Below are positions 1 through 49,283 of a DNA stretch of 64,000 bases, piece after piece (the first letter of the stretch is position 1; every line of letters starts with the position of its first letter). The position numbers were made by a program, and so were the translations under genes. The notes under the pieces are model-generated. The model made no database searches. It was not told the origin of the DNA and worked only from the letters and a program-made list of their open reading frames with translations. Source of the DNA: Escherichia coli (GTDB lineage: Bacteria; Pseudomonadota; Gammaproteobacteria; Enterobacterales; Enterobacteriaceae); NCBI RefSeq assembly GCF_045037415.1, contig NZ_CP173438.1. The stretch is one strand, 5' to 3'.

Positions 1-2527
<2,527 letters not shown>

Positions 2528-2533
2528 GTGCGG

Positions 2534-2962
2534 TTAACCTCCCGTAAGTGGAACTAACAGCACATCGACCTCACTTGAGGTAATCACTCTTTTCGCCGAG
2601 CAGGATGCTCGCGAAAAGAAACTGTGATTGTGATTACCGCAAATCACCAAATCGAAATGATGTTTGCGACAAACTTCCAGAATATGTTCGCTTAACTCAC
2701 CGTAGGCAATAAACGTCTTGTCAACGGGATACCCCGCATCCTGAATTAACTTATCAAGAAAGCTTTGCGTTTCTTCCTGCATCACGTTGCGTAAATCTTC
2801 AAGCATCGGCGCAGCTAATTGATTGTACATTTCCGGGTCGGAAGCGAGAGTAATTAAACTGATGTGTCCCTTTACTGGCCTGGCGATAGATACCGCTTTT
2901 GCCAGCAGTTGCTGACTTTCCGGTGTAACCGCAACGGCGACAAGAATATTGCTATAGCTCAT
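2534..2962 (-). CDS. uspC: universal stress protein C
   Basis: 142-aa ORF MSYSNILVAVAV... matches UspC (YecG); convergent with otsA with 6 bp between stop codons. Confidence 0.9.
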   Translation of the reverse strand: MSYSNILVAVAVTPESQQLLAKAVSIARPVKGHISLITLASDPEMYNQLAAPMLEDLRNVMQEETQSFLDKLIQDAGYPVDKTFIAYGELSEHILEVCRKHHFDLVICGNHNHSFFSRASCSAKRVITSSEVDVLLVPLTGG

Positions 2963-3741
2963 AACCTGTTCCTTATTCTGTGAACTTCAGGTGACATTAA
3001 AGCTTTACTCCTAATGGAGAAACGACGCAATCCCAACTCAGTTAAACAGGTAAATATTAGTCTGGTCATTAGTAAATACAATTAATCAATTGCTCTTGGT
3101 TATCATATGATTTCAACTGTATTTATAAGAAAATAATGTACTGATTTCCCATATTGAACAAGTGGTTAATATATGTAAAGCATTTTATTAACATTAGGTT
3201 GATTGTTGCCTTTCTTTGTAGTTAATTAGTTTGTTGTGCGGTAAGTGTTTGTTTAAAAATGGCTTACCTGGTATTGCATTAAAGCGATTATTTATAGCAG
3301 ATGATTATTTACGGTGAGTTATTTTAACTGTACGCAACATCCCATTTCGATTATTCCTGTTTCATTTTTGCTTGCCAGTGTAGCGAAAAATTTTTTAACA
3401 GATTGAAATACACCCAAAACAAAAGTATGACTTATACATTTATGTTAAGTAATTGAGCGTTTTGTGTGATCTGCATCACACATTATTGAAAATCGCAGCC
3501 CCCCTCCGTTGTATGTGCGTGTAGTGACGAGTACAGTTGCGTCGATTTAGGAAAAATCTTAGATAAGTGTAAAGACCCCCTTCTATTTGTAAGGACTTAT
3601 TAAACCAAAAAGGTGGGTCTGCTTATTGCAGCTTATCGCAACTATTCTAATGCTAATTATTTTTTACCGGGGCTTCCCGGCGACATCACGGGGTGCGGTG
3701 AGACCGCATAAAAATAAAGTTGGTTATTCTGGGTGGGAATA
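2963..3741 (+). promoter_or_regulatory. flhDC upstream regulatory region and long 5' leader (no IS element present)
   Basis: About 780 bp AT-rich intergenic region between uspC and flhD; position corresponds to the class I flagellar master promoter region; individual binding sites not mapped. Confidence 0.5.
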
Positions 3742-4092
3742 ATGCATACCTCCGAGTTGCTGAAACACATTTATGACATCAACTTGTCATATTTACTACT
3801 TGCACAGCGTCTGATTGTTCAGGACAAAGCGTCCGCTATGTTTCGTCTCGGCATAAATGAAGAAATGGCGACAACGTTAGCGGCACTGACTCTTCCGCAA
3901 ATGGTTAAGCTGGCAGAAACCAATCAACTGGTTTGTCACTTCCGTTTTGACAGCCACCAGACGATTACTCAGTTGACGCAAGATTCCCGCGTTGACGATC
4001 TCCAGCAAATTCATACCGGCATCATGCTCTCAACACGCTTGCTGAATGATGTTAATCAGCCTGAAGAAGCGCTGCGCAAGAAAAGGGCCTGA
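3742..4092 (+). CDS. flhD: flagellar master regulator FlhD
   Basis: ORF 3733..4092; [24 protein letters not shown]... matches FlhD; start placed at MHTSEL. Confidence 0.92.
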
Positions 4093-4094
4093 TC

Positions 4095-4673
4095 ATGAGT
4101 GAAAAAAGCATTGTTCAGGAAGCGCGGGATATTCAGCTGGCAATGGAATTGATCACCCTGGGCGCTCGTTTGCAGATGCTGGAAAGCGAAACACAGTTAA
4201 GTCGCGGACGTCTGATAAAACTCTATAAAGAACTGCGCGGAAGCCCACCGCCGAAAGGCATGCTGCCATTTTCAACCGACTGGTTTATGACCTGGGAACA
4301 AAATGTTCATGCTTCGATGTTCTGTAATGCATGGCAGTTTTTACTGAAAACTGGCTTGTGTAATGGCGTCGATGCGGTGATCAAAGCCTACCGTTTATAC
4401 CTTGAACAGTGCCCGCAAGCAGAAGAAGGACCGCTGCTGGCATTAACCCGTGCCTGGACATTGGTGCGGTTTGTTGAAAGTGGATTACTGCAACTTTCCA
4501 GCTGCAACTGCTGCGGCGGCAATTTTATTACCCATGCTCACCAGCCTGTTGGCAGCTTTGCCTGCAGCTTATGTCAGCCGCCATCCCGGGCAGTAAAAAG
4601 ACGTAAACTTTCCCAGAATCCTGCCGATATTATCCCACAACTGCTGGATGAACAGAGAGTACAGGCTGTTTAA
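4095..4673 (+). CDS. flhC: flagellar master regulator FlhC
   Basis: 192-aa ORF with the zinc-binding cysteine cluster (CNCCGGNF...CSLC) typical of FlhC; immediately follows flhD. Confidence 0.93.
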
Positions 4674-4697
4674 CTGATACGGTGTGGCGAAACATTC

Positions 4698-4731
4698 CAG
4701 CAGCGGTAACGACGTACCGCTGCTTTTTTTT
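4698..4731 (+). terminator. intrinsic terminator after flhDC
   Basis: GC-rich inverted repeat cagcagcggtaacgacgtaccgctg followed by a T8 run. Confidence 0.5.
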
Positions 4732-4799
4732 GCCCCTATCGCGTGTTAACGCCTGACGACTGAACATCCTGTCATGGTCAACAGTGGAAGGATGATGTC

Positions 4800-5683
4800 G
4801 TGCTTATCTTATTAGGTTACCTGGTTGTTCTCGGTACAGTTTTCGGCGGTTATTTGATGACCGGTGGAAGCCTTGGAGCACTCTATCAACCCGCTGAACT
4901 GGTGATTATTGCCGGTGCAGGGATTGGGTCGTTTATCGTCGGCAATAATGGCAAAGCGATTAAAGGCACGCTGAAGGCGCTGCCGTTGCTGTTTCGTCGC
5001 TCCAAATACACCAAAGCAATGTATATGGATCTGCTGGCTCTGCTTTATCGGTTGATGGCGAAATCGCGGCAGATGGGGATGTTTTCGCTGGAACGCGATA
5101 TTGAAAATCCCCGTGAGAGCGAGATCTTCGCCAGCTACCCACGCATCCTTGCGGATAGCGTCATGCTTGAATTTATCGTCGATTATCTGCGCCTGATTAT
5201 CAGCGGTCACATGAACACCTTCGAAATCGAAGCCCTGATGGATGAAGAAATTGAGACGCACGAAAGCGAGGCAGAAGTCCCGGCGAACAGTCTGGCGCTG
5301 GTCGGGGACTCACTTCCGGCTTTTGGTATTGTTGCGGCTGTAATGGGGGTAGTTCACGCGTTAGGTTCAGCCGATCGTCCTGCCGCCGAGCTGGGGGCGC
5401 TTATCGCTCATGCGATGGTGGGGACTTTCCTCGGTATTTTATTGGCTTACGGATTTATTTCCCCATTAGCGAGTGTTTTACGTCAGAAAAGCGCCGAAAC
5501 CAGCAAAATGATGCAGTGCGTCAAAGTCACTCTGCTTTCAAATCTGAACGGTTACGCACCGCCTATCGCCGTTGAGTTTGGTCGCAAAACGCTCTATTCC
5601 AGCGAACGTCCGTCGTTTATTGAGCTGGAAGAGCATGTGCGTGCGGTGAAAAATCCGCAACAACAGACGACAACCGAGGAAGC

Positions 5684-5687
<4 letters not shown>
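4800..5687 (+). CDS. motA: flagellar motor stator protein MotA
   Basis: 295-aa ORF, GTG start, [17 protein letters not shown]... matches MotA. Confidence 0.93.
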
Positions 5688-8579
<2,892 letters not shown>

Positions 8580-10954: not shown

Positions 10955-11180
10955 ATGTTTAATCGTATTCGAATTTCGACCACGCTGTTTTTAATTTTGA
11001 TTCTCTGCGGGATCTTGCAGATTGGCAGTAACGGCATGTCTTTTGGGCATTTCGCGACGATTTGCAACGACTGAATCAGGCCGACCATCTTTCGTCGCGT
11101 GTGGCGGTATTTACCCTTGAAGAACATGAAGTAGCACGACATGAGTCGGCGCAGTTACAAATTGCGCCAGTGGTATCCTG
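10955..11180 (+). pseudogene. tap: tap (dipeptide chemoreceptor) remnant: N-terminal about 30 codons joined to the C-terminal about 45 codons, with a frame break
   Basis: ATG at 10955 gives MFNRIRISTTLFLILILCGILQIGSNGMSF then a stop at 11072 after a T4 run; the +1 frame continues WAFRDDLQRLNQADHLSSRVAVFTLEEHEVARHESAQLQIAPVVS* ending at 11180; full-length Tap is about 533 aa. Confidence 0.75.
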
Positions 11181-41137: not shown

Positions 41138-42534
41138 CCAGCCAGAACACCCCGGCATGGCGTAACGATGACCTGGAAGGCGCTGTCATCGGTGCGTTTT
41201 TTCTGCGTGGGGCCGATCCGGAAGTGATGGATATTCTGGCCACACTTCCGGCGGATGTATTTTTTGTGCGTCAGTACCGGGATATTTACGCGGGGATTTG
41301 CAGACAGGCTCGCATATCCGGCGTCATTGACCCCGTACTGCTGTGCAATGAGATGCCGGAACTTGCCCCGGTGATTACCGACACCGGACGCAAAACCTGG
41401 GTGAAGTCTTCACTGGAGCACTATGTCGCAGCGTTGCGGCGCAATGCCGCACTGCGTGATGCAGAAAAAACACTGACTGAAGCATTACAGAATTTACGTG
41501 ATGCGTATACCTGTGAAGCAGCCGAGGATGCCCTGAAGGATGCGCAGAACATGATGGCCTCACTGTCGACCGGAAAGGGCGTCATTCAGCCGGTTCACAT
41601 TGATGATGTCCTTCCGGAAGTGGTCGACCGTGTTGAATGCCGCAATCAGGGACTGGAGAAATCCAGGGCGCTGATGACCGGTATTGATGAACTGGACGCA
41701 AAAACGGGCGGTATGGAGCCCGGAGACCTGGTATTCATTGCCGCCCGTCCTTCGATGGGGAAAACCGAACTTGCGCTGGACATCATCGACAAGGTGACTG
41801 AGCAGGGGCATGGCGTGCTTCTGTTCACCATGGAGATGGCGAACATCCAGATTGGTGAACGTATGGTGTCTGCTGCCGGTGGAATGCCGGTATCCCGTCT
41901 TAAGTCTGTTGCCCGTTTTGAAGATGAAGACTGGGCGCGTTTCTCGCAGGGCGTGGGACGAATGACGGGGCGTAATATCTGGATGGTGGACCAGGCAAAC
42001 CTGACCATTGATGAGATATGTGCAACCACGAAGCACCACCGGATGAAGCATCCGGAAACGGCGCTGGTTGTGGTCGATTACCTCGGCCTGATTAAAACCC
42101 GCAGCACGGGGCGTCACGACCTTGCTGTGGGGGAAATCTCAAAGGGACTTAAAAGCCTGGCAAAATCCGGCGGTTTTCCGCTGATTGCTCTGAGCCAGCT
42201 CTCCCGTGGCGTGGAATCCAGACCCAATAAACGCCCAATGAACTCGGACCTGAAAAACTCCGGGGAAATCGAGGCGGATGCCGACATCATTCTGATGCTT
42301 TACAGGGAGGAGGTATACAACCCGGAAACTCAGGCCAGAGGCATAGCAGAAATCAACATCACGAAACAGCGTAATGGCACGCTCGGGACCATTTACCGGC
42401 GTTTTCATAACGGACATTTTCTGCCTGTGGACCAGGAGAGTGCCCGGGTTCTTTCCACACCAATGCAACAGCCCCAGCCGCGCAGATACAGCAACAAACG
42501 AACTGACAGCAGTAAGATGGAGCGTTTCTTTTGA
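41134..42534 (+). CDS. DnaB-family replicative DNA helicase
   Basis: 466-aa ORF with Walker A ARPSMGKTELALD and DnaB-like C-terminal domain motifs (VVVDYLGLI, LSQLSRG). Confidence 0.85.
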   Translation: MTSQNTPAWRNDDLEGAVIGAFFLRGADPEVMDILATLPADVFFVRQYRDIYAGICRQARISGVIDPVLLCNEMPELAPVITDTGRKTWVKSSLEHYVAALRRNAALRDAEKTLTEALQNLRDAYTCEAAEDALKDAQNMMASLSTGKGVIQPVHIDDVLPEVVDRVECRNQGLEKSRALMTGIDELDAKTGGMEPGDLVFIAARPSMGKTELALDIIDKVTEQGHGVLLFTMEMANIQIGERMVSAAGGMPVSRLKSVARFEDEDWARFSQGVGRMTGRNIWMVDQANLTIDEICATTKHHRMKHPETALVVVDYLGLIKTRSTGRHDLAVGEISKGLKSLAKSGGFPLIALSQLSRGVESRPNKRPMNSDLKNSGEIEADADIILMLYREEVYNPETQARGIAEINITKQRNGTLGTIYRRFHNGHFLPVDQESARVLSTPMQQPQPRRYSNKRTDSSKMERFF

Positions 42535-42788
42535 ACAACCAGACAATGACTTTTACCCCTGAGCAATTACGTAAACAGGCACAGGAAATGTTGCGGCAGG
42601 CGGAACAACTGGAAAAAACAGGTGTAACAAAAGATGCCATTCGTCGGGATATGGTGCCAGCGCTCAGGGAACTGATGCAGGCAAAACACCGTGCACAAAA
42701 AGCAGTGGATGAGCTGGTGGATTGTGTGGCAGAGCTGGAAACCAGAGTTGGTAAGTTTGAAAAACTGGTGCAGGAGGTACTGCGCTGA
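42531..42788 (+). CDS. hypothetical coiled-coil protein
   Basis: 85-aa ORF, overlapping-stop packing. Confidence 0.4.
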   Translation: MNNQTMTFTPEQLRKQAQEMLRQAEQLEKTGVTKDAIRRDMVPALRELMQAKHRAQKAVDELVDCVAELETRVGKFEKLVQEVLR

Positions 42789-43156
42789 TGCGTGATATGT
42801 ACGAAGTTTTAGATCGTTGGGGGGCCTGGGCTGCAGCAGATAACAGTGGTGTGGACTGGCAGCCGATAGCAGCAGGCTTCAAGGGGCTTTTACCACACGG
42901 TAAAAAGTCACGTCTCCAGTGTGATGATGACGAAGGTATCATGATAGACGGTTGTGTGGCTCGGTTGCGAAAGTATAAACCCGAAGAGTATGAGTTGATC
43001 ATTGCTCACTTTGTTATTGGTATCTCATTACGCGCTATTGCTAAAAAACGGAAATGTTCAGATGGAACAATACGGAAAGAGATGCAAACAGCAATGGGGT
43101 TTATTGATGGCTGCTTGTCATTTTTCATTTACTACAATGACTTAAGTTCTATGTAA
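42788..43156 (+). CDS. late-gene antiterminator Q-like protein (QuuD-type)
   Basis: 122-aa ORF MRDMYEVLDRWGAWAAADNSGVDWQPIAAGFKGLLP... resembling the recalled short Q/QuuD family of E. coli prophages; sits directly before the late cargo and lysis region. Confidence 0.6.
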   Translation: MRDMYEVLDRWGAWAAADNSGVDWQPIAAGFKGLLPHGKKSRLQCDDDEGIMIDGCVARLRKYKPEEYELIIAHFVIGISLRAIAKKRKCSDGTIRKEMQTAMGFIDGCLSFFIYYNDLSSM

Positions 43157-43219
43157 AATCGTTCTACTTTCCCAACTTTTATGTGTATATAATACCAGGA
43201 TAAAGTAACGGAGAATCTT

Positions 43220-44260
43220 GTGAACATTCAGGCAGTAGACATTTTTTGTGGTGCGGGGGGCTTAACTTTTGGGCTAAAAAAAGCCGGGATTGAGGTTTCT
43301 CATGGTATTGATATTGATGAATCCTGCCGTTTTGCTATTGAGAGCAATAATCCTTTAACGCAGTTCATTAATCAGTCAGTTACAGAACTGCAATCCTGCG
43401 ATGTGTCTGCTATGTTCAAGGAAGGAAATATTAGATTGCTTGCTGGATGTGCTCCTTGCCAACCGTTTTCCAAGTATCGTAATCCAAATAGCCGTAAAGA
43501 CGATACAAAGTGGCGTTTGTTATATGAGTTTCAAAGGCTTGTAAGTGATGTCATGCCAGAGCTTGTGACGATGGAGAATGTTCCTCAACTTAGAAACCAT
43601 AAGGTTTTTGAAGGGTTTGTTAGTGCATTAAAGACTCTTGGATATCATTTGTGGTACGACGTTGTAAGATGTTCTGAGTATGGCTTACCTCAAAATAGAC
43701 GTAGATTAATTCTAATTGGTTCCCAATTGGGGCCGATCAGCCTTGATCAAAAAAAAGTTAGCCGTAAAGTTACTGTTAAGGATGCTATTGGTAGGTTGCC
43801 AAAAGTAGGGGCAGGTGAGAAGCTGGAAAGCGATCCCTTGCATCGTTCGCCTAAATTGATGGATATCAATCTTAAACGAATCATGCATTCTTTACCTGGT
43901 GGTACGTGGGATGACTGGCCTGAAGAAATTAGAGCAGACTGTCATAAAAAGAATTCAGGTGCTACCTATAAAAGCGTTTATGGACGGATGGTTTGGGACG
44001 ATACTAGCCCTACGATAACTACCCAGTGTTATGGATATGGAAATGGACGATTTGGCCATCCTGAGCAAAATCGCGCCATAACTTTGCGTGAAGCTGCGAT
44101 TTTGCAATCCTTTCCAATGGATTATAAATTCCTTGACAAGGAGACGCCTTTTTCATTCCAAAAATTGGGGACAATGATTGGAAATGCTGTTCCCCCTATA
44201 ATTGGTCAGATAATAGGGGAAACATTTATCAGACATGTTGAGGGGATAAATACCCGTTAG
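43220..44260 (+). CDS. DNA (cytosine-5)-methyltransferase, Dcm family
   Basis: 346-aa ORF, GTG start; C5-MTase motifs I FCGAGG, IV PCQPFS, VI ENV, VIII QNRRR and X GNAV are all visible. Confidence 0.85.
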   Translation: MNIQAVDIFCGAGGLTFGLKKAGIEVSHGIDIDESCRFAIESNNPLTQFINQSVTELQSCDVSAMFKEGNIRLLAGCAPCQPFSKYRNPNSRKDDTKWRLLYEFQRLVSDVMPELVTMENVPQLRNHKVFEGFVSALKTLGYHLWYDVVRCSEYGLPQNRRRLILIGSQLGPISLDQKKVSRKVTVKDAIGRLPKVGAGEKLESDPLHRSPKLMDINLKRIMHSLPGGTWDDWPEEIRADCHKKNSGATYKSVYGRMVWDDTSPTITTQCYGYGNGRFGHPEQNRAITLREAAILQSFPMDYKFLDKETPFSFQKLGTMIGNAVPPIIGQIIGETFIRHVEGINTR

Positions 44261-44918
44261 AGGTAATATAATTTTCTGTTGAGTTGATTAATAAACGCAA
44301 ATATAGATCAATTCTTTCTGACCTCGATTTGACTTCTTCTAAAGGGTCTATTTGACCTTTTTTAGAAAAGCTGGTACTTCCATGTGCCAGCTCATTTCTG
44401 ATATCTTTAAGTAAATCTAAGTCAACACCATTTCTACACTCTGGTGAGTTTGCAACAGTTATTCCGTAAGCTTGTGTTATTTTGTGCAATACAGACTTGC
44501 AAACATTACCATTGAATTCTTTACGTATGTTTAATGAGGCTGAAATGATCCTTTTAGATATATCGGAACCAATTTTTTGATAAAGAGATTTTCCCGATTC
44601 ATTATCTGAAATGATACGGTGCAAGATATTTACTTGGAATTTCTCCCTGAGTGATGCGTAATTTACTTCATTATCTTGCAAATGGTCATAAATTGACTCA
44701 ATGCATCCTCTGGCAGTGTTTTCAACCTGATTGTACAGCATCATGTGCACGGATGATTTTAAAATGTTAACCCTAAGGGTATTTGATTCTATTTCATCTT
44801 TATGCGTTTGCTGATCTAACTGCTGAGTCTGAGCCTCTAAAGATGACGCAAGAGAAAGCAATTCCATAATATCTCTTGCTCTTTCTTCGTATTCATCTCT
44901 TAAATCAATCAAACTCAT
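44229..44918 (-). CDS. HEPN-domain protein (predicted RNase/nuclease), partner of the DUF262 protein
   Basis: 229-aa ORF; C-terminal Rx4H HEPN motif (DIRNELAHG); ATG 2 nt after the stop of the upstream DUF262 gene with an AGGA Shine-Dalgarno inside that gene's 3' end. Confidence 0.65.
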   Translation of the reverse strand: MSLIDLRDEYEERARDIMELLSLASSLEAQTQQLDQQTHKDEIESNTLRVNILKSSVHMMLYNQVENTARGCIESIYDHLQDNEVNYASLREKFQVNILHRIISDNESGKSLYQKIGSDISKRIISASLNIRKEFNGNVCKSVLHKITQAYGITVANSPECRNGVDLDLLKDIRNELAHGSTSFSKKGQIDPLEEVKSRSERIDLYLRLLINSTENYITSNGYLSPQHV

Positions 44919-44920
44919 AG

Positions 44921-46078
44921 TTACATTCCTAATAATTTATCTTTGACATAAAATATTCTGTTTTTGAGTTGGCTGGTGTTGTTGGCACTATCAGCAGTAA
45001 CTATGGTTTCAAATTCCTCCCCAAACAGCCAGTCTCCTACAGGAATAACCGGAGCCTGTAGATGTGGATTGGCTTTTAAGGCAAGAGCAGTTCCCACTGC
45101 TATGGCTTCGTATCTAGCACGGGGGGTGGTTTTGCTTGTTGGTGTCTTTTTAAACCCCATAGGGAAATGAGCATCTACAAAAGCAAGCATGCTTTCAAAA
45201 TCATGTTTAAATTTGTCTACATCTTGTTGTGTGACCCTTTCGGCCTGAACATTAAGATAATTGTCAATAAAAGGAGCGACATAACCCTTATAATTTTCTA
45301 AATCATTTAAGTATGCAAAAAATCTCAAAACTAACTCACGATGATCGCCATTCGAACGTTTCCGGTCTGATAATGGAGCTAGACTAGCGAAAAGTGGATT
45401 TGTTGAGCAAGGAGTCACAACATCCCTATAGAAAATTGAAGTGGCCGCATCTGAACCATGTCTAACCTCCATCGCTTCCAGTCTCTTAACACCTGAATTT
45501 ATTCTTTCGAATAAATCTCTTCTATGTTGCTCCTCAACATCACCTTTCAATTCAATAAATCTTAGTGATGCCCTTAAAAATCGCCTCTGGCGGCTAGCCA
45601 AAAGATCTGAAAATTTGAAGCCCTCTAAACTTTTGAGTTCTTTTAAGTCTTTCAATTCAAACTGATTGTTCCAAAAGTAGTAAATTGAGCGAATCCTTTG
45701 TGAACCGTCAATAATTTCTACACGACCATCCAACTCAGGATCTTCATTAAATACGTCGGAGATGTAGAGGTACGGGATTGGAAAATCTAATAATATACTT
45801 TCGATGAATCGAGAGGCTGTTTTGATATCCCATTTGTAATCGCGTTGATAATCAGGAATAAAAAGTTCGTTTTTGTCAGTTTCAAGATTATTGCCATACT
45901 TTTGTACAATTAATTCAACGGTCCATTCACGTACGTTGTATCCAATATTTCTCTGAGCAAGCCTAATCTCGTTGTCGGCAGAAGTGACCAAGGCTGCAAT
46001 TTCAGCTTTTTTTCTATTTTTCGCGTTTTCATCTTGAATCTGAGCAAGCTCTTCTTTGAGTTCTTTGAGTGTGGTCAT
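44921..46078 (-). CDS. DUF262 (ParB/Srx-like, GmrS-N-type) domain protein without an HNH/DUF1524 domain
   Basis: 385-aa ORF; DUF262 hallmarks FIPDYQRDYKW and IIDGSQR near the N-terminus; long helical C-terminal region with no nuclease motif. Confidence 0.75.
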   Translation of the reverse strand: MTTLKELKEELAQIQDENAKNRKKAEIAALVTSADNEIRLAQRNIGYNVREWTVELIVQKYGNNLETDKNELFIPDYQRDYKWDIKTASRFIESILLDFPIPYLYISDVFNEDPELDGRVEIIDGSQRIRSIYYFWNNQFELKDLKELKSLEGFKFSDLLASRQRRFLRASLRFIELKGDVEEQHRRDLFERINSGVKRLEAMEVRHGSDAATSIFYRDVVTPCSTNPLFASLAPLSDRKRSNGDHRELVLRFFAYLNDLENYKGYVAPFIDNYLNVQAERVTQQDVDKFKHDFESMLAFVDAHFPMGFKKTPTSKTTPRARYEAIAVGTALALKANPHLQAPVIPVGDWLFGEEFETIVTADSANNTSQLKNRIFYVKDKLLGM

Positions 46079-46186
46079 ATCACTGTTCCTTTAATTGGAG
46101 TTGGAAATAGATTGTAAGAAAACTATAACGCGTACGCAAAAAATATTATATCGTGTTAAGAGTGGTTACTACGCCACACAGCTTAA

Positions 46187-46212
46187 ACCCGCCGCCAGGC
46201 GGTTTTTTGTGT
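46187..46212 (+). terminator. intrinsic terminator on the + strand (candidate late tR'-type terminator)
   Basis: cccgccgccaggcgg hairpin followed by a T6 run, between the DUF262 gene start and the next + strand ORF. Confidence 0.45.
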
Positions 46213-46331
46213 CCGAAAAACGGCGCAGTACGTTAAACGTGCTGGTGGTTGCGAATACCGGTCTTTCAGCTTGCTGGCTTTTCAGACAAGAGTTATTGGT
46301 ATGTCACGTTAACCAGAAAAGGGAAAAAGAC

Positions 46332-46529
46332 ATGCTAAAACAGCAGGATATGACCGAAACTGCCAGAGTGGTGTTTAATGAATTAAGCGTCACCGAACCG
46401 GCGACCGTCGGGGAAATTGCGCAGAATACTTACCTTTCACGCGAACGCTGCCAGCTAATACTGACCCAGCTTGTTATGGCGGGTCTGGCAGATTATCAGT
46501 TCGGTTGTTACAGACGCCTTCCGCAGTGA
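46332..46529 (+). CDS. hypothetical small protein, possible winged helix
   Basis: ORF 46095..46529; start placed at MLKQQDMTETARVVFNELSV... Confidence 0.35.
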   Translation: MLKQQDMTETARVVFNELSVTEPATVGEIAQNTYLSRERCQLILTQLVMAGLADYQFGCYRRLPQ

Positions 46530-46679
46530 AGGCTTTTTTATTTGTGGTAATGGGCGGCTGGTGGGTGTTAGCGGCACCTGCCAGCCATCTGCTCATGCGT
46601 TGGGGTCACAAGCAAACCTCAGGCCCATCTGCTTTGCGCAAAAGCGGTATGAGCCTATCAGAGAAGTGCTTATTGATCT

Positions 46680-47420
46680 ATGGCTAATACTGTAAAAATA
46701 TCCAGTTGTGAGTTAATCAACGCCGACTGCCTGGAATTTATCCGGTCGTTACCCGAAAATTCTGTTGACCTGATAGTCACGGACCCGCCGTACTTTAAAG
46801 TGAAGCCTGAGGGCTGGGATAACCAGTGGAAGGGCGACGATGATTACCTGAAGTGGCTGGACCAGTGTCTGGCGCAGTTCTGGCGGGTGCTGAAACCTGC
46901 CGGAAGTCTTTACCTGTTCTGTGGTCATCGCCTGGCATCTGATATCGAAATCATGATGCGTGAACGCTTCAGTGTGCTGAACCATATTATCTGGGCGAAG
47001 CCGTCCGGACGCTGGAACGGATGCAACAAGGAAAGCCTGCGGGCGTATTTCCCCGCCACAGAGCGCATTCTGTTCGCGGAACATTATCAGGGGCCGTATC
47101 GTCCGAAAGATGCCGGGTATACGGCGAAGGGCAGTACGGCTGTGTCGGACAGGGCTTACATATTGCCAAAAAACTGCTTCCGTATATCCCTAATAACGCG
47201 GGGATCCTGCTGGTACCATGCTGTCGTGGTGGTTCGGCATTCACCCAGGGCACGGAGGGGACATTCAGCGAGTCCACGGGGGCCAGTCAGGATTCGGCTC
47301 GCTGGGGAGTGGGTAAGCCGTTATATCAGGATCTGCTTTTCCGCACGAAGGCAGCATTGCAGAAAAACCCGAAAAACGTTTTGCTGGCGATATGCTGGAT
47401 GCAGGGGGAATTCGATATGA
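46680..47420 (+). pseudogene. N6-adenine/N4-cytosine-type DNA methyltransferase, N-terminal fragment only (frame lost after about 140 codons)
   Basis: Motif IV TDPPYF and ...LNHIIWAKP... are present, but no motif I follows; the frame degenerates into low-complexity sequence while the overlapping frame becomes NanS-like. Confidence 0.45.
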
Positions 47421-48562
47421 CGAATGCCAGTTACGCCCAGCAGCCAGCAGCATTTCTTGCAATGGTACAGCAGTTCCGTGCTGACCTTGCCGGGCTGGCG
47501 GCGCAGTGTCACGGTGGAAGTCCGGCATCAGTCCCCTGGATTTGTGGCGACACGACATACGTGTGGAAACAAGAACACGGTACGCAATATGAAGTGGTAT
47601 ATGGTGCATATAAAGGTAAAGAATCCCAGCAGATTTATTTTGTTCCCTTTATGACCGATGGTAGCGGAGTTAATACACCGACAAACAACCCGTCAGAAGA
47701 TCCTGATATTGCCGGGTCTGGTTATTACGGTTCGGCATCCCGAACGAACAAAAACTGGGTATCATCAAATCGCCCGACGCATTTCAGCTCATGGGCGCGT
47801 CGTGGCATTATTCCCGATCGTATGGCAACTGCTATTCTGAACGTAGCCGGTCGCACCTTAGCCTTCATTAGTGGTAAGGCACCGGAAATCAAACCCTCGC
47901 CCGGCGGCGACACTCCATCGGGGCCGTCTGATGGTGACACATCCGTTCGTACAGTCTCCCTGCTGCCGACAGCCGGAGAGGCTGCTGCGCAGGGCTGGAC
48001 CATCACCGGCGGCAGTGTTGCGCTGGAAGATGGTGTGTTTAAGGTTACCAAGCAGAGCAATAAAACTTGGTCCCTGATGCATCCGGTGGATGACGCAGTC
48101 TCCCTGCTGACACGGGGTGGCAGACTGAGCTGTAAGTTTCGACTGTCAGGCGCACTGACCAACAACCAGTTCGGTCTGGGAATTTATCTGTGTACCGATG
48201 TAGCGTTACCTGACGTCGTGGCGATGACCGGGACTGGTAACCCGTTCCTGATGTCGTTCTTCACCCAGACCACAGACGGCAAACTGAATCTGATGCATCA
48301 CAGGAAAGCAGGAAACACAAAGTTGGGCGAGTTCGGGAATTACAGTAACGACTGGCAGACGCTGGAGCTGGTGTTCACCGCCGGCAGTGCCACGGTTACT
48401 CCGAAACTGAATGGAGTGGCTGGCCCGGCATTCCAGGTCATAAAAGACAGTCTGACACTGGGGCTGAATGCGCTGACGCTGACGGATATTACCAAAAATG
48501 CAGCGTATGGCGTTGAGATAGAAAGTCTGGTGCTGGAGATAAATGCACCAGCATCATCATAA
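47021..48562 (+). CDS. prophage NanS-like sialate O-acetylesterase (NanS-p type), apparently 5'-truncated
   Basis: Frame matches recalled YjhS/NanS from ...QYGCVGQGLHIAKKLLPYIPNNAGILLVPCCRGGSAFTQGTEGTFSE... onward, plus a C-terminal extension; the N-terminal GQSN-containing region was not seen. Confidence 0.55.
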   Translation: MQQGKPAGVFPRHRAHSVRGTLSGAVSSERCRVYGEGQYGCVGQGLHIAKKLLPYIPNNAGILLVPCCRGGSAFTQGTEGTFSESTGASQDSARWGVGKPLYQDLLFRTKAALQKNPKNVLLAICWMQGEFDMTNASYAQQPAAFLAMVQQFRADLAGLAAQCHGGSPASVPWICGDTTYVWKQEHGTQYEVVYGAYKGKESQQIYFVPFMTDGSGVNTPTNNPSEDPDIAGSGYYGSASRTNKNWVSSNRPTHFSSWARRGIIPDRMATAILNVAGRTLAFISGKAPEIKPSPGGDTPSGPSDGDTSVRTVSLLPTAGEAAAQGWTITGGSVALEDGVFKVTKQSNKTWSLMHPVDDAVSLLTRGGRLSCKFRLSGALTNNQFGLGIYLCTDVALPDVVAMTGTGNPFLMSFFTQTTDGKLNLMHHRKAGNTKLGEFGNYSNDWQTLELVFTAGSATVTPKLNGVAGPAFQVIKDSLTLGLNALTLTDITKNAAYGVEIESLVLEINAPASS

Positions 48563-48712
48563 AAAGTGAGCCAGTCAAATGGAAGGTATCGTTAAACTCA
48601 CCGGTAGTGTCAGTGGGTCGTCTGAGATGCCTGCATGAGTTATCAGAGCCATCAGTACTTAACTGGTGGCTTTTTTTATTGTTGTCAGCTTCCGGATAAC
48701 GGGAGACGGGGT

Positions 48713-48928
48713 ATGTACCAGATGGAAAAAATCACAACAGGTGTGTCATACACCACGTCAGCGGTGGGAACGGGCTACTGGTTCCTGCAGTTGCTGGACA
48801 GGGTTTCCCCGTCTCAGTGGGCGGCAATAGGCGTGCTGGGGAGTCTGCTGTTTGGGCTGCTGACATATCTGACTAACCTGTATTTCAAAATCAGAGAGGA
48901 CCGTCGTAAGGCTGCACGGGGAGAGTAA
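48713..48928 (+). CDS. S: holin, phage 21 S-like pinholin
   Basis: ORF 48635..48928; [71 protein letters not shown] resembles S21; tandem Met starts (MYQM) and a GGGAGACGGGG Shine-Dalgarno. Confidence 0.8.
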
Positions 48929-48932
48929 TTCA

Positions 48933-49283
48933 ATGACTCAAAACTATGAACTGATTGTGAAAGGGATCCGCAATTTTGAGAATAAAGTTACGGTAACTTT
49001 AGCGTTACGGGACAAAAAACGCTTTGACGGTGAAATTTTTGACCTGGACATCTCGCTGGACCGTGTTGAAGGTGCCGCGCTGGAGTTTTATGAGGCAGCA
49101 GCCAGAAGGAGCATCAGACAGGTCTTCCTGGATGTTGCTGCCGGGTTATGTGAAGGGGATGAGCAGTCGCCGGAAAAGCGCCCCGTAATTTTAGAGGCGC
49201 AGAATGTATGGATAACCTACAAAGGAAAGCTACCGGGAAGAATTACTGGTTCTCTGAAGACTCCTCCGGAATCACAACCTTAA
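48933..49283 (+). CDS. hypothetical protein inserted between holin and endolysin
   Basis: 116-aa ORF with no recognisable motifs. Confidence 0.4.
   Translation: MTQNYELIVKGIRNFENKVTVTLALRDKKRFDGEIFDLDISLDRVEGAALEFYEAAARRSIRQVFLDVAAGLCEGDEQSPEKRPVILEAQNVWITYKGKLPGRITGSLKTPPESQP

What the first reader, a model, noticed from the sequence alone, without database searches (positions are those of the whole stretch)
43220..44260. Dcm-family C5 methyltransferase whose 3' end overlaps the HEPN gene convergently by about 32 bp
A complete C5-MTase (motifs I, IV, VI, VIII and X all visible) ends at 44260 while the HEPN gene on the opposite strand ends at 44229, so the two 3' ends overlap. That tight convergent arrangement suggests co-acquisition and possible antisense interplay. 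It could be the modification partner of a restriction-like DUF262-HEPN module, an anti-restriction phage methylase, or a target-generating enzyme for a modification-dependent system. The last would be self-toxic unless specificities differ, which makes the pairing worth resolving.
Basis: partly seen in the sequence, partly recalled or inferred. Interest (0 to 1): 0.55.

Follow-up and report, generated by a model that had tools for sequence, protein, structure and literature searches.

The report
Methylase partner of a DUF262-HEPN defence cassette
The cytosine methylase is real and is the third gene of a mobile three-gene cassette (methylase, DUF262 sensor, HEPN RNase) found in prophages, satellites and transposons, which probably acts like a restriction-modification system but has never been tested experimentally.

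Summary
Window 43220-44260 (+) encodes an intact 346-aa C5-cytosine DNA methyltransferase. Its last 32 bp overlap the 3' end of a MAE_28990-type HEPN gene (44229-44918, -), which is translationally coupled to a DUF262/ParB-like NTPase gene (44921-46078, -).

The three genes form one low-GC, roughly 3-kb cassette (43180-46167). It sits directly downstream of the Q antiterminator of a phiP27-like prophage integrated next to a yecE-like (DUF72) gene in E. coli.

The methylase is a conserved partner, not a chance neighbour:
- In 5,426 complete E. coli genomes, the methylase and the DUF262-HEPN pair occur together in exactly the same 106 genomes.
- All 18 HEPN-homologue neighbourhoods I examined, down to 22% identity, have an adjacent C5-methylase gene.
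- These neighbourhoods include P2 and P4 hotspots, a Tn7-like element and Moraxella phages. Two of them are arranged divergently, not convergently.

The overlap length is not conserved: it ranges from a 52-nt overlap to a 39-nt gap.

This triad was noted computationally in 2013, and I found no experimental study of it. The most likely mechanism is R-M-like: 5mC marks self DNA, the DUF262 protein reads the mark, and the HEPN RNase is the effector. Methylase specificity and the direction of discrimination remain untested.

The parts
42788..43156 (+). Q-like antiterminator gene. This is context, marking the left flank of the hotspot that holds the cassette.
   Evidence: PHROG 79 'anti-termination protein Q-like', 4.9e-49. 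PGAP names it 'antiterminator Q family protein'. In phiP27 a GIY-YIG nuclease gene follows Q at the same place.
43180..46167 (.). The three-gene cassette as one mobile block: methylase, HEPN and DUF262 genes with their own upstream regions.
   Evidence: Homology to the Salmonella bongori prophage copy spans exactly 43180-46167 at 70% identity. Homology to phiP27 is interrupted between 42835 and 46147. GC is 38.2%, against 50-51% for the flanks.
43184..43193 (+). A -10-like element, TGTATATAAT, about 27 nt upstream of the methylase start. It is a putative promoter belonging to the cassette and is followed by a CCAGG site at 43195-43199.
   Evidence: It is conserved in the window, L003, L007 and L006. 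L004 and L012 have TGTTATAAT and TGTTATACT at the equivalent place. This is sequence conservation only; function was not tested.
43220..44260 (+). C5-cytosine DNA methyltransferase gene, 346 aa, GTG start, all catalytic motifs intact.
   Evidence: PADLOC type II MTase model 1.6e-87 and DrmMII model 4e-85. It is 52% identical over its full length to the methylase paired with a BbrUII/HgiDII-family restriction enzyme in a P2 hotspot.
44229..44260 (.). The 32-bp convergent overlap of the methylase and HEPN 3' ends.
   Evidence: The same 32 bp are present in L003. Other loci have overlaps of 35, 38, 4, 19, 15, 24, 52 and 4 nt, or gaps of 2, about 11, 29 and 39 nt.
44229..44918 (-). MAE_28990-family HEPN gene, 229 aa; the predicted RNase effector.
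44921..46078 (-). DUF262/ParB-like NTPase gene, 385 aa; the predicted DNA or modification sensor. Its stop codon lies 2 nt from the HEPN start, so the two form one operon.
46130..46150 (-). Putative control region of the DUF262-HEPN operon. On the minus strand it has a TATAAT (46145-46150), then a T-run, then the 8-bp palindrome GCGTACGC (46130-46137).
   Evidence: It is conserved in the window, L003 and L006; L007 has GCGTCAGC instead. Function was not tested.
46189..46212 (+). Intrinsic-terminator-like hairpin, CCGCCGCCAGGCGG followed by TTTTTTGTGT, at the right edge of the cassette in phage backbone sequence.
   Evidence: It lies in the stretch shared with phiP27 and Stx phages, which begins at 46148.

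Best explanation
The ORF is an intact C5-cytosine DNA methyltransferase and the modification gene of a conserved, horizontally mobile three-gene cassette. The layout is methylase, then, convergently, a HEPN (MAE_28990) gene and a DUF262/ParB-like NTPase gene. In this window the cassette fills the variable cargo slot just downstream of the Q antiterminator of a phiP27-like E. coli prophage.

Proposed mechanism, with each step marked:
1. Inferred from intact motifs: the methylase puts 5mC on its target sites in resident DNA, both chromosome and prophage.
2. Inferred from homology to BrxU, SspE and GmrSD sensors: the DUF262 protein binds DNA, uses NTP hydrolysis, and reads whether the mark is present.
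3. Inferred from the invariant Rx4H HEPN site and operon coupling: DNA without the mark, such as an incoming phage, makes the DUF262 protein license the HEPN RNase, which stops the infection by cutting RNA.

Methylation is therefore the 'self' label, as in restriction-modification or the Ssp system, but the effector arm is an RNase and not a DNA endonuclease.

The 32-bp 3' overlap is a by-product of tight packing in a convergent module. It is not a conserved regulatory device in itself.

What is shown: gene identity, intact motifs, cassette boundaries and universal linkage. What is not shown: the methylase's target sequence, the direction of discrimination and the effector's substrate.
For: Linkage within E. 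coli:
- The 3.9-kb region holding all three genes is contiguous in 106 of 5,426 complete genomes.
- The methylase alone is found at 80% coverage or more in 106 genomes, and the DUF262-HEPN pair alone in 106.
- The identity classes match: 72 genomes at 99% or more, and 34 at 85-91%.

Linkage across mobile elements and taxa. All 18 neighbourhoods of HEPN homologues that I examined (22-91% identity) carry an adjacent C5-methylase gene:
- a second lambdoid prophage;
- a P4-like satellite at ssrA;
- the P2 gpA/portal hotspot;
- a Tn7-like element in Pseudoalteromonas;
- Yersinia and S. bongori prophages;
- Psychromonas;
- metagenomic contigs;
- Moraxella phages.

Two distant loci have a divergent gene order with a different, longer C5-methylase, and one of them also has Vsr. 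The association therefore survives both rearrangement and methylase replacement.

Other support:
- The three proteins co-diverge: pairwise-identity correlations are 0.80-0.94.
- In one decayed allele the methylase and HEPN genes are both frameshifted.
- A 52%-identical methylase, similar through the target-recognition region, serves a bona fide type II restriction enzyme in the same P2 hotspot.
- All catalytic motifs are intact in all three proteins.
- The cassette is one low-GC block.
- Anantharaman et al. [quoted passage not shown]
Against: - I found no experimental data for this triad.
- Most characterised DUF262 sensors (GmrSD, BrxU, GrwAB, and by inference Dazbog) recognise modified DNA, not unmodified DNA.
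- PD-T4-2, the closest validated DUF262+HEPN pair, is defined as a two-gene system and blocks T4, a phage with modified DNA, with no methylase in its definition.
- The distant divergent loci use a non-orthologous methylase. That is awkward if the sensor is sequence-specific.
- Phage P2_4B2 has a frameshifted methylase beside apparently intact DUF262 and HEPN genes. The shift lies in a run of eight G and may be a sequencing error.
- The target sequence is unknown. Counts of GTCGAC and CCWGG in the window say nothing either way.
Confidence: 0.6

Rival explanations
1. Ssp-like licensing. 5mC on the host's own DNA is not an antidote but a required cofactor. The DUF262 protein binds methylated self sites, which stimulates its NTPase and arms the HEPN effector against unmarked invaders. 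Without the methylase the pair would be inert, not toxic.
Against: No data bear on it directly. [quoted passage not shown] In L020/L021 the methylase and HEPN genes decay together, which fits either model.
Confidence: 0.2
2. A type IV-like module plus an unrelated methylase. DUF262-HEPN attacks phages with modified cytosines, as PD-T4-2 and GmrSD do. The methylase serves another purpose, such as protecting the mobile element's DNA from host restriction enzymes or regulating genes epigenetically.
For: PD-T4-2 (DUF262 plus HEPN) defends against T4. BrxU, the best structural match, cuts modified DNA. Phage-borne orphan methylases are common, and the same prophage carries remnants of a second, N6-adenine methylase.
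Against: This model gives no reason for strict linkage. Yet 18 of 18 neighbourhoods have a C5-methylase, including non-phage contexts and a rearranged gene order. The E. coli co-occurrence is 106/106. The HEPN proteins do not match the PD-T4-2_B model. If the sensor recognised 5mC, the pairing would be self-toxic.
Confidence: 0.12
3. The methylase generates the target. 5mC made by the methylase is what DUF262-HEPN recognises, giving an addiction or toxin-like module held in check by expression control, for example by convergent transcription.
For: Convergent overlapping 3' ends could give mutual transcriptional interference. Most DUF262 sensors read modified DNA.
Against: It would be constitutively self-toxic in lysogens. 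The overlap is not conserved, and two loci are divergent, so antisense control cannot be a general safeguard. Nothing in the data calls for this model.
Confidence: 0.04
4. Chance neighbours. Two independent cargo genes happen to sit in the same prophage hotspot.
For: The Q-downstream slot is a variable cargo site; phiP27 has a GIY-YIG nuclease there.
Against: The two parts share boundaries, share low GC, are perfectly linked, and recur on P2, P4, Tn7-like and Moraxella phage backbones.
Confidence: 0.02

Closest known systems
Predicted 'MAE_28990 HEPN + ParB nuclease + DNA methylase' operon (Anantharaman, Makarova, Burroughs, Koonin and Aravind 2013, Biol Direct 8:15, Table 1)
   Same: The same three components: a PF18737 HEPN, a DUF262/ParB-like protein and a DNA methylase. 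The window cassette is an instance of this predicted operon.
   Different: The paper gives one table line. It offers no mechanism, no gene order, no mobile-element context and no experiment. This analysis adds the convergent and divergent architectures, the hotspot locations and the linkage statistics.
PD-T4-2 (Vassallo et al. 2022), an E. coli DUF262 + HEPN two-gene anti-T4 system
   Same: A DUF262 protein paired with a small HEPN protein, carried by E. coli. The DUF262 protein hits PD-T4-2_A at 4e-27 to 5e-35.
   Different: PD-T4-2_B (HEPN PF18735) does not match any HEPN protein of this clade in PADLOC. PD-T4-2 is defined without a methylase. The DUF262 protein scores higher on the NsnA model.
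SspABCD-SspE (phosphorothioate-sensing defence)
   Different: In Ssp the mark is a phosphorothioate, not 5mC. The effector is a fused DUF1524 nickase, not a separate HEPN RNase. No ssp genes are present here.
GmrSD / BrxU type IV restriction enzymes
   Different: There is no DUF1524/HNH nuclease domain. Those enzymes have no cognate methylase and target modified DNA.
Menshen (NsnABC)
   Same: The DUF262 protein gives its best PADLOC score to NsnA, 5.6e-46, covering residues 16-313.
   Different: There is no NsnB ABC-ATPase and no NsnC inPIN-nuclease gene. The partner is a HEPN protein, with a methylase in addition.
Classical type II R-M, for example the BbrUII/HgiDII-family system in the P2 hotspot of E. 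coli CB209
   Same: An orthologous-grade methylase: 52% identity over the full length, including the variable region. It sits in the same kind of prophage hotspot. The presumed logic of a self mark is shared.
   Different: The partner here is not a recognisable DNA endonuclease. It is a DUF262 NTPase plus a HEPN RNase.

Membership tests
C5-cytosine DNA methyltransferases (PF00145 / TIGR00675) | Profile match above the curated cut-off. | tested here: met
   PF00145 1.1e-53 over residues 4-336. TIGR00675 121.4 bits against a cut-off of 100.65.
C5-cytosine DNA methyltransferases (PF00145 / TIGR00675) | Conserved motifs I (FxGxG), IV (PCQ with the catalytic Cys), VI (ENV), VIII (QxRxR), IX and X (GNAVP). 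| tested here: met
   FCGAGG 9-14, PCQPFS 79-84, ENVP 119-122, QNRRR 158-162, TLREAAILQSFP 288-299, GNAVPP 321-326.
C5-cytosine DNA methyltransferases (PF00145 / TIGR00675) | Methyl transfer to C5 of cytosine at a defined DNA sequence. | not testable with these tools
   Needs bisulfite, EM-seq or nanopore 5mC mapping. The ST131 methylome study covers a strain without this gene and did not detect 5mC.
E. coli Dcm proper (NF007772, CCWGG) | Match to the Dcm subfamily model above its cut-off. | tested here: not met
   16.5 bits against a cut-off of 710.
MAE_28990 HEPN / ParB / methylase operon (Anantharaman 2013) | A HEPN protein of the MAE_28990 family with the Rx4-6H motif. | tested here: met
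   PF18737 4.6e-16. RNELAH at 174-179; R174 and H179 are invariant in 39 homologues.
MAE_28990 HEPN / ParB / methylase operon (Anantharaman 2013) | An adjacent ParB-like (DUF262) gene and a DNA methylase gene. | tested here: met
   The DUF262 stop lies 2 nt from the HEPN start, and the methylase is convergent with a 32-bp overlap. The same triad is present in 18 of 18 neighbourhoods.
PD-T4-2 | A PD-T4-2_A (DUF262) match. | tested here: met
   4.3e-27, 93 bits, but lower than the NsnA score of 155 bits.
PD-T4-2 | A PD-T4-2_B (HEPN) match. | tested here: not met
   No PD-T4-2_B hit at E of 0.01 or better for the window HEPN or for three related HEPNs.
GmrSD / BrxU / SspE family | A DUF262 N-terminal NTPase domain with the DGxQR motif. 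| tested here: met
GmrSD / BrxU / SspE family | A C-terminal DUF1524 His-Me (HNH) nuclease domain. | tested here: not met
   No DUF1524 hit in Pfam. Residues 207-385 are helical, with no nuclease match.
Menshen (NsnABC) | An NsnA-like DUF262 protein followed by an NsnB ABC-ATPase and an NsnC effector. | tested here: not met
   The NsnA model hits at 5.6e-46, but the only downstream gene is the HEPN gene. No ATPase gene lies in the cassette.
Type II restriction-modification system | A methylase plus a cognate DNA endonuclease that cuts unmethylated sites. | tested here: inconclusive
   The methylase matches PADLOC MTase_II at 1.6e-87. No recognisable restriction-endonuclease fold is present. 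Whether DUF262-HEPN restricts unmethylated DNA cannot be tested here.

The most novel reading that the evidence does not exclude
This would be a restriction-modification system whose restriction arm is an RNase. The DUF262 NTPase senses DNA that lacks the cassette's 5mC mark and unleashes the HEPN RNase, giving abortive or translational shut-off and not DNA cleavage.

In lambdoid prophages the cassette is always oriented with the methylase co-directional with Q-dependent late transcription. Induction would therefore boost methylation of progeny DNA while transcribing antisense through the effector operon, switching the module from 'defend' to 'mark progeny'.
Probability: 0.25. Interest if true: 0.7.

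Novelty: new member of a known kind. Interest (0 to 1): 0.42.

Why it matters
If the cassette works as proposed, it would be a compact defence system that discriminates by methylation and pairs a GmrSD-type sensor with an RNase effector.

This architecture is widespread:
- E. coli ST131-type strains, Klebsiella pneumoniae, Enterobacter, Vibrio and Pseudomonas;
- P2 and P4 hotspots, a Tn7-like element and Moraxella phages.

Its HEPN component has no model in PADLOC v2.0.0, so current annotation reports only an 'orphan' type II methylase and a DUF262 protein.

It offers a tractable case for asking how DUF262 sensors read DNA marks, and in particular whether a DUF262 sensor can read the absence of a mark. 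It also bears on whether HEPN RNases serve as effectors in R-M-like systems, as predicted in 2013.

For genome annotation, it shows that this prophage 'cytosine methylase' should not be read as a stand-alone anti-restriction or epigenetic enzyme.

Tried and rejected
- **Genome-collection scan with HEPN alignments.** The third returned only two loci, one of them spurious. I relied on exact-protein contig look-ups instead.
- **Methylase specificity from solved structures.** I obtained only generic hits to DNMT1, M.HaeIII and M.HhaI, with no close relative. The 52% identity to an HgiDII-system methylase is a lead towards GTCGAC-like specificity, not a result. GTCGAC (8 sites against 12 expected) and CCWGG counts are uninformative.
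- **ST131 methylome paper.** The strain studied lacks this gene and 5mC was not assayed.
- **Consensus promoter and terminator scan.** It gave fewer promoter-like sites than shuffled controls and no bidirectional terminator at the junction. Folding the two 3' regions gave z-scores of -1.4 and -2.2, with hairpins but no canonical U-tract terminators.
- **Rfam and tRNA scans.** The Rfam scan of 42000-49000 and the tRNA scan of the whole window found nothing.
- **Filing the locus as PD-T4-2, Menshen, GmrSD or Dcm.** Each was rejected because a defining component was tested and not met (see the membership table).
- **An essential overlap-based antisense mechanism.** I judged this unlikely to be essential, because the overlap length is not conserved and two loci are divergent.

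Full report
**Observation.** The ORF list gives 43220..44260 (+), 346 aa with a GTG start, and 44229..44918 (-), 229 aa. They share 44229-44260, which is 32 bp. A third ORF, 44921..46078 (-), 385 aa, ends 2 nt before the HEPN start, so those two genes form an operon. PGAP annotates the same three CDSs in identical E. coli chromosomes as 'DNA cytosine methyltransferase', 'MAE_28990/MAE_18760 family HEPN-like nuclease' and 'DUF262 domain-containing protein'.

The methylase matches PF00145 at 1.1e-53 and the TIGR00675 superfamily above its cut-off. It has motifs I, IV, VI, VIII, IX and X. It is not an orthologue of E. coli Dcm: NF007772 scores 16.5 bits against a cut-off of 710. The HEPN protein matches PF18737 at 4.6e-16 and has the Rx4H motif RNELAH. 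The DUF262 protein matches PF03235 at 3.6e-25 and has the QRxxxW, DGxQR and FxxxN motifs.

**Genomic setting.** The window is an E. coli chromosome segment, 100% identical to many ST131-type genomes. A lambdoid prophage is integrated next to a yecE-like DUF72 gene. The cassette follows the Q-like antiterminator (42788-43156; PHROG 79). It precedes a small TrmB-like ORF, a truncated N6-methylase gene, a DUF6645 pseudogene, and holin and lysozyme genes.

Phage phiP27 shares both flanks but has a GIY-YIG nuclease gene in the same slot. This is therefore a variable cargo site. The cassette has 38% GC against about 50% in the flanks. Homology to a 70%-identical copy in a Salmonella bongori prophage runs exactly from 43180 to 46167. 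That span reaches from about 40 nt upstream of the methylase start to about 90 nt upstream of the DUF262 start. The three genes are a single mobile block.

**Is the methylase a partner or a neighbour?** In 5,426 complete E. coli genomes:
- the contiguous three-gene region is present in 106 genomes;
- the methylase alone, at 80% coverage or more, is in 106;
- the DUF262-HEPN pair alone is in 106;
- the identity classes match, with 72 near-identical and 34 at 85-91%.

The 34 belong to a different lambdoid prophage, again right after Q and with the same 32-bp overlap. More diverged E. coli copies sit in a P4-like satellite next to its integrase at ssrA. Another sits in the P2 hotspot between the replication endonuclease and portal genes.

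Outside E. coli, every HEPN homologue whose neighbourhood I could read has a DUF262 gene upstream and a C5-methylase gene adjacent:
- Pseudoalteromonas, as Tn7-like cargo;
- Yersinia mollaretii and S. bongori prophages;
- Psychromonas;
- six metagenomic contigs with HEPN at 23-39% identity;
- phage P2_4B2 and Moraxella catarrhalis phages.

That makes 18 of 18 loci. Sixteen are convergent. Two distant ones are divergent, with the methylase gene facing away from a DUF262-then-HEPN operon. Those two use a different, longer C5-methylase, and one also has a Vsr mismatch endonuclease. The association thus survives both a change of gene order and a change of methylase clade. Pairwise identities of the three proteins across loci correlate, with r of 0.80-0.94.

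In one E. coli lineage the cassette is decaying. The methylase is frameshifted and HEPN is frameshifted after residue ~190. DUF262 is intact in one genome and split in another.

**The overlap itself.** Junctions range from a 52-nt overlap to a 39-nt gap. Tight packing is typical, but a particular overlap is not conserved. I found no canonical bidirectional terminator. Each transcript would have to end inside the other gene. Convergent transcription is therefore inherent to most copies, but an overlap-specific antisense mechanism cannot be essential.

In all lambdoid contexts the methylase is co-directional with the late genes. Late transcription would therefore run antisense through the effector operon. 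This is an inference from orientation only.

**What the parts look like.**
- Y62, N63, E66, R174 and H179 are invariant in 39 HEPN homologues.
- The methylase belongs to a very large clade of roughly 345-aa enzymes. A 52%-identical member, similar through the variable region, is the methylase of a BbrUII/HgiDII-family type II system in the same P2 hotspot. That shows this methylase clade serves as the modification arm of restriction systems.
- A -10-like TGTATATAAT upstream of the methylase gene is conserved among diverged enterobacterial copies. So are a TATAAT and the palindrome GCGTACGC upstream of the DUF262 gene.

**Mechanism.** The best-supported reading is an R-M-like system. The methylase marks resident DNA. 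The DUF262 NTPase reads the mark. The HEPN RNase is the effector released when unmarked DNA appears. Gene identity, intact catalytic motifs, cassette unity and universal linkage are shown. The methylase's target, the direction of discrimination and the RNase substrate are inferred.

The main variant is Ssp-like licensing, in which self methylation is an activating cofactor and not an antidote.

Against the R-M-like reading:
- most characterised DUF262 sensors read modified DNA;
- PD-T4-2, a DUF262+HEPN pair, blocks T4 and is defined without a methylase;
- phage P2_4B2 shows a frameshifted methylase beside intact effector genes, although the shift is in a run of eight G and may be an error.

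A type IV-like module with an unrelated methylase, a target-generating methylase and chance adjacency are all disfavoured by the linkage data.

**Comparison with what is known.** Anantharaman et al. [quoted passage not shown] Makarova et al. 2013 note that COG1479/DUF262 is associated with DNA modification systems and with HEPN. I found no experimental study of this triad.

- It is not PD-T4-2: the B component does not match.
- It is not Menshen: there is no NsnB or NsnC.
- It is not GmrSD, BrxU or SspE: there is no DUF1524 domain.
- It is not Dcm.

PADLOC v2.0.0 has no model that recognises the HEPN component. It flags only the methylase, as a generic type II, DrmMII or DruM methylase, and the DUF262 protein as NsnA-like.

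**Verdict.** The cassette is a new, well-delimited instance of a computationally predicted but experimentally uncharacterised system. It is not a new kind of system. Interest is moderate. The cassette is widespread, sits in recognised defence hotspots, is missed as a system by the defence-annotation library tested here (PADLOC v2.0.0), and is easy to test.

Noticed in passing
window 46680-48562: The N6-adenine methylase gene is cut short at about 47131, where homology to phiP27 ends. It is joined to an N-terminally truncated DUF6645 (nanS-like) pseudogene. phiP27 has tRNA genes and stx2e after this methylase, so this looks like a deletion scar at the toxin and tRNA cargo site. No tRNA genes are found anywhere in the window.
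   Followed up: partly
window 46130-46150 (minus strand): Upstream of the DUF262 gene there is a TATAAT, a T-run and the 8-bp palindrome GCGTACGC. They are conserved in three diverged enterobacterial cassettes and altered in a fourth. This could be an operator or a methylation-sensitive site.
   Followed up: partly
window 43184-43199: A conserved -10-like TGTATATAAT upstream of the methylase gene is followed at once by a CCAGG (Dcm-type) site in three of four related cassettes.
   Followed up: partly
L020 and L021 (E. coli CP184814 / CP184811), 2838-5700: A decaying copy of the cassette. The methylase is in three frames and HEPN is frameshifted after about residue 190. DUF262 is intact in one genome and split in the other.
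   Followed up: yes
L023 (phage P2_4B2, NC_049387.1), 2355-2370: The methylase gene of the triad is frameshifted within a run of eight G, while the DUF262 and HEPN genes appear intact. This could be a sequencing error or a phase-variable tract.
   Followed up: partly
L016, 1938-3640: In the divergently arranged distant triad, a Vsr very-short-patch repair endonuclease gene sits next to the longer C5-methylase gene. This is the classical companion for repairing 5mC deamination.
   Followed up: no
L018 (E. coli FDAARGOS_1058), 1369-4262: A 39%-identical C5-methylase is paired co-directionally with an 'ATP-dependent nuclease' in a Rac-like prophage. This is another alternative partner for the same methylase clade.
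   Followed up: no
window 46189-46212 (+): A strong intrinsic-terminator-like hairpin with a T6 tail lies at the first bases of backbone sequence shared with phiP27 and Stx phages. It is positioned to stop rightward transcription leaving the cassette unless that transcription is antiterminated.
   Followed up: no
window 10956-11107: A frameshifted fragment encoding a Tar ligand-binding domain lies between tar and cheR, where tap normally lies. This suggests loss of tap in this lineage.
   Followed up: no
whole window: CCWGG occurs 164 times against 108 +/- 11 expected from dinucleotide-preserving shuffles, and no shuffle reached 164.
   Followed up: no
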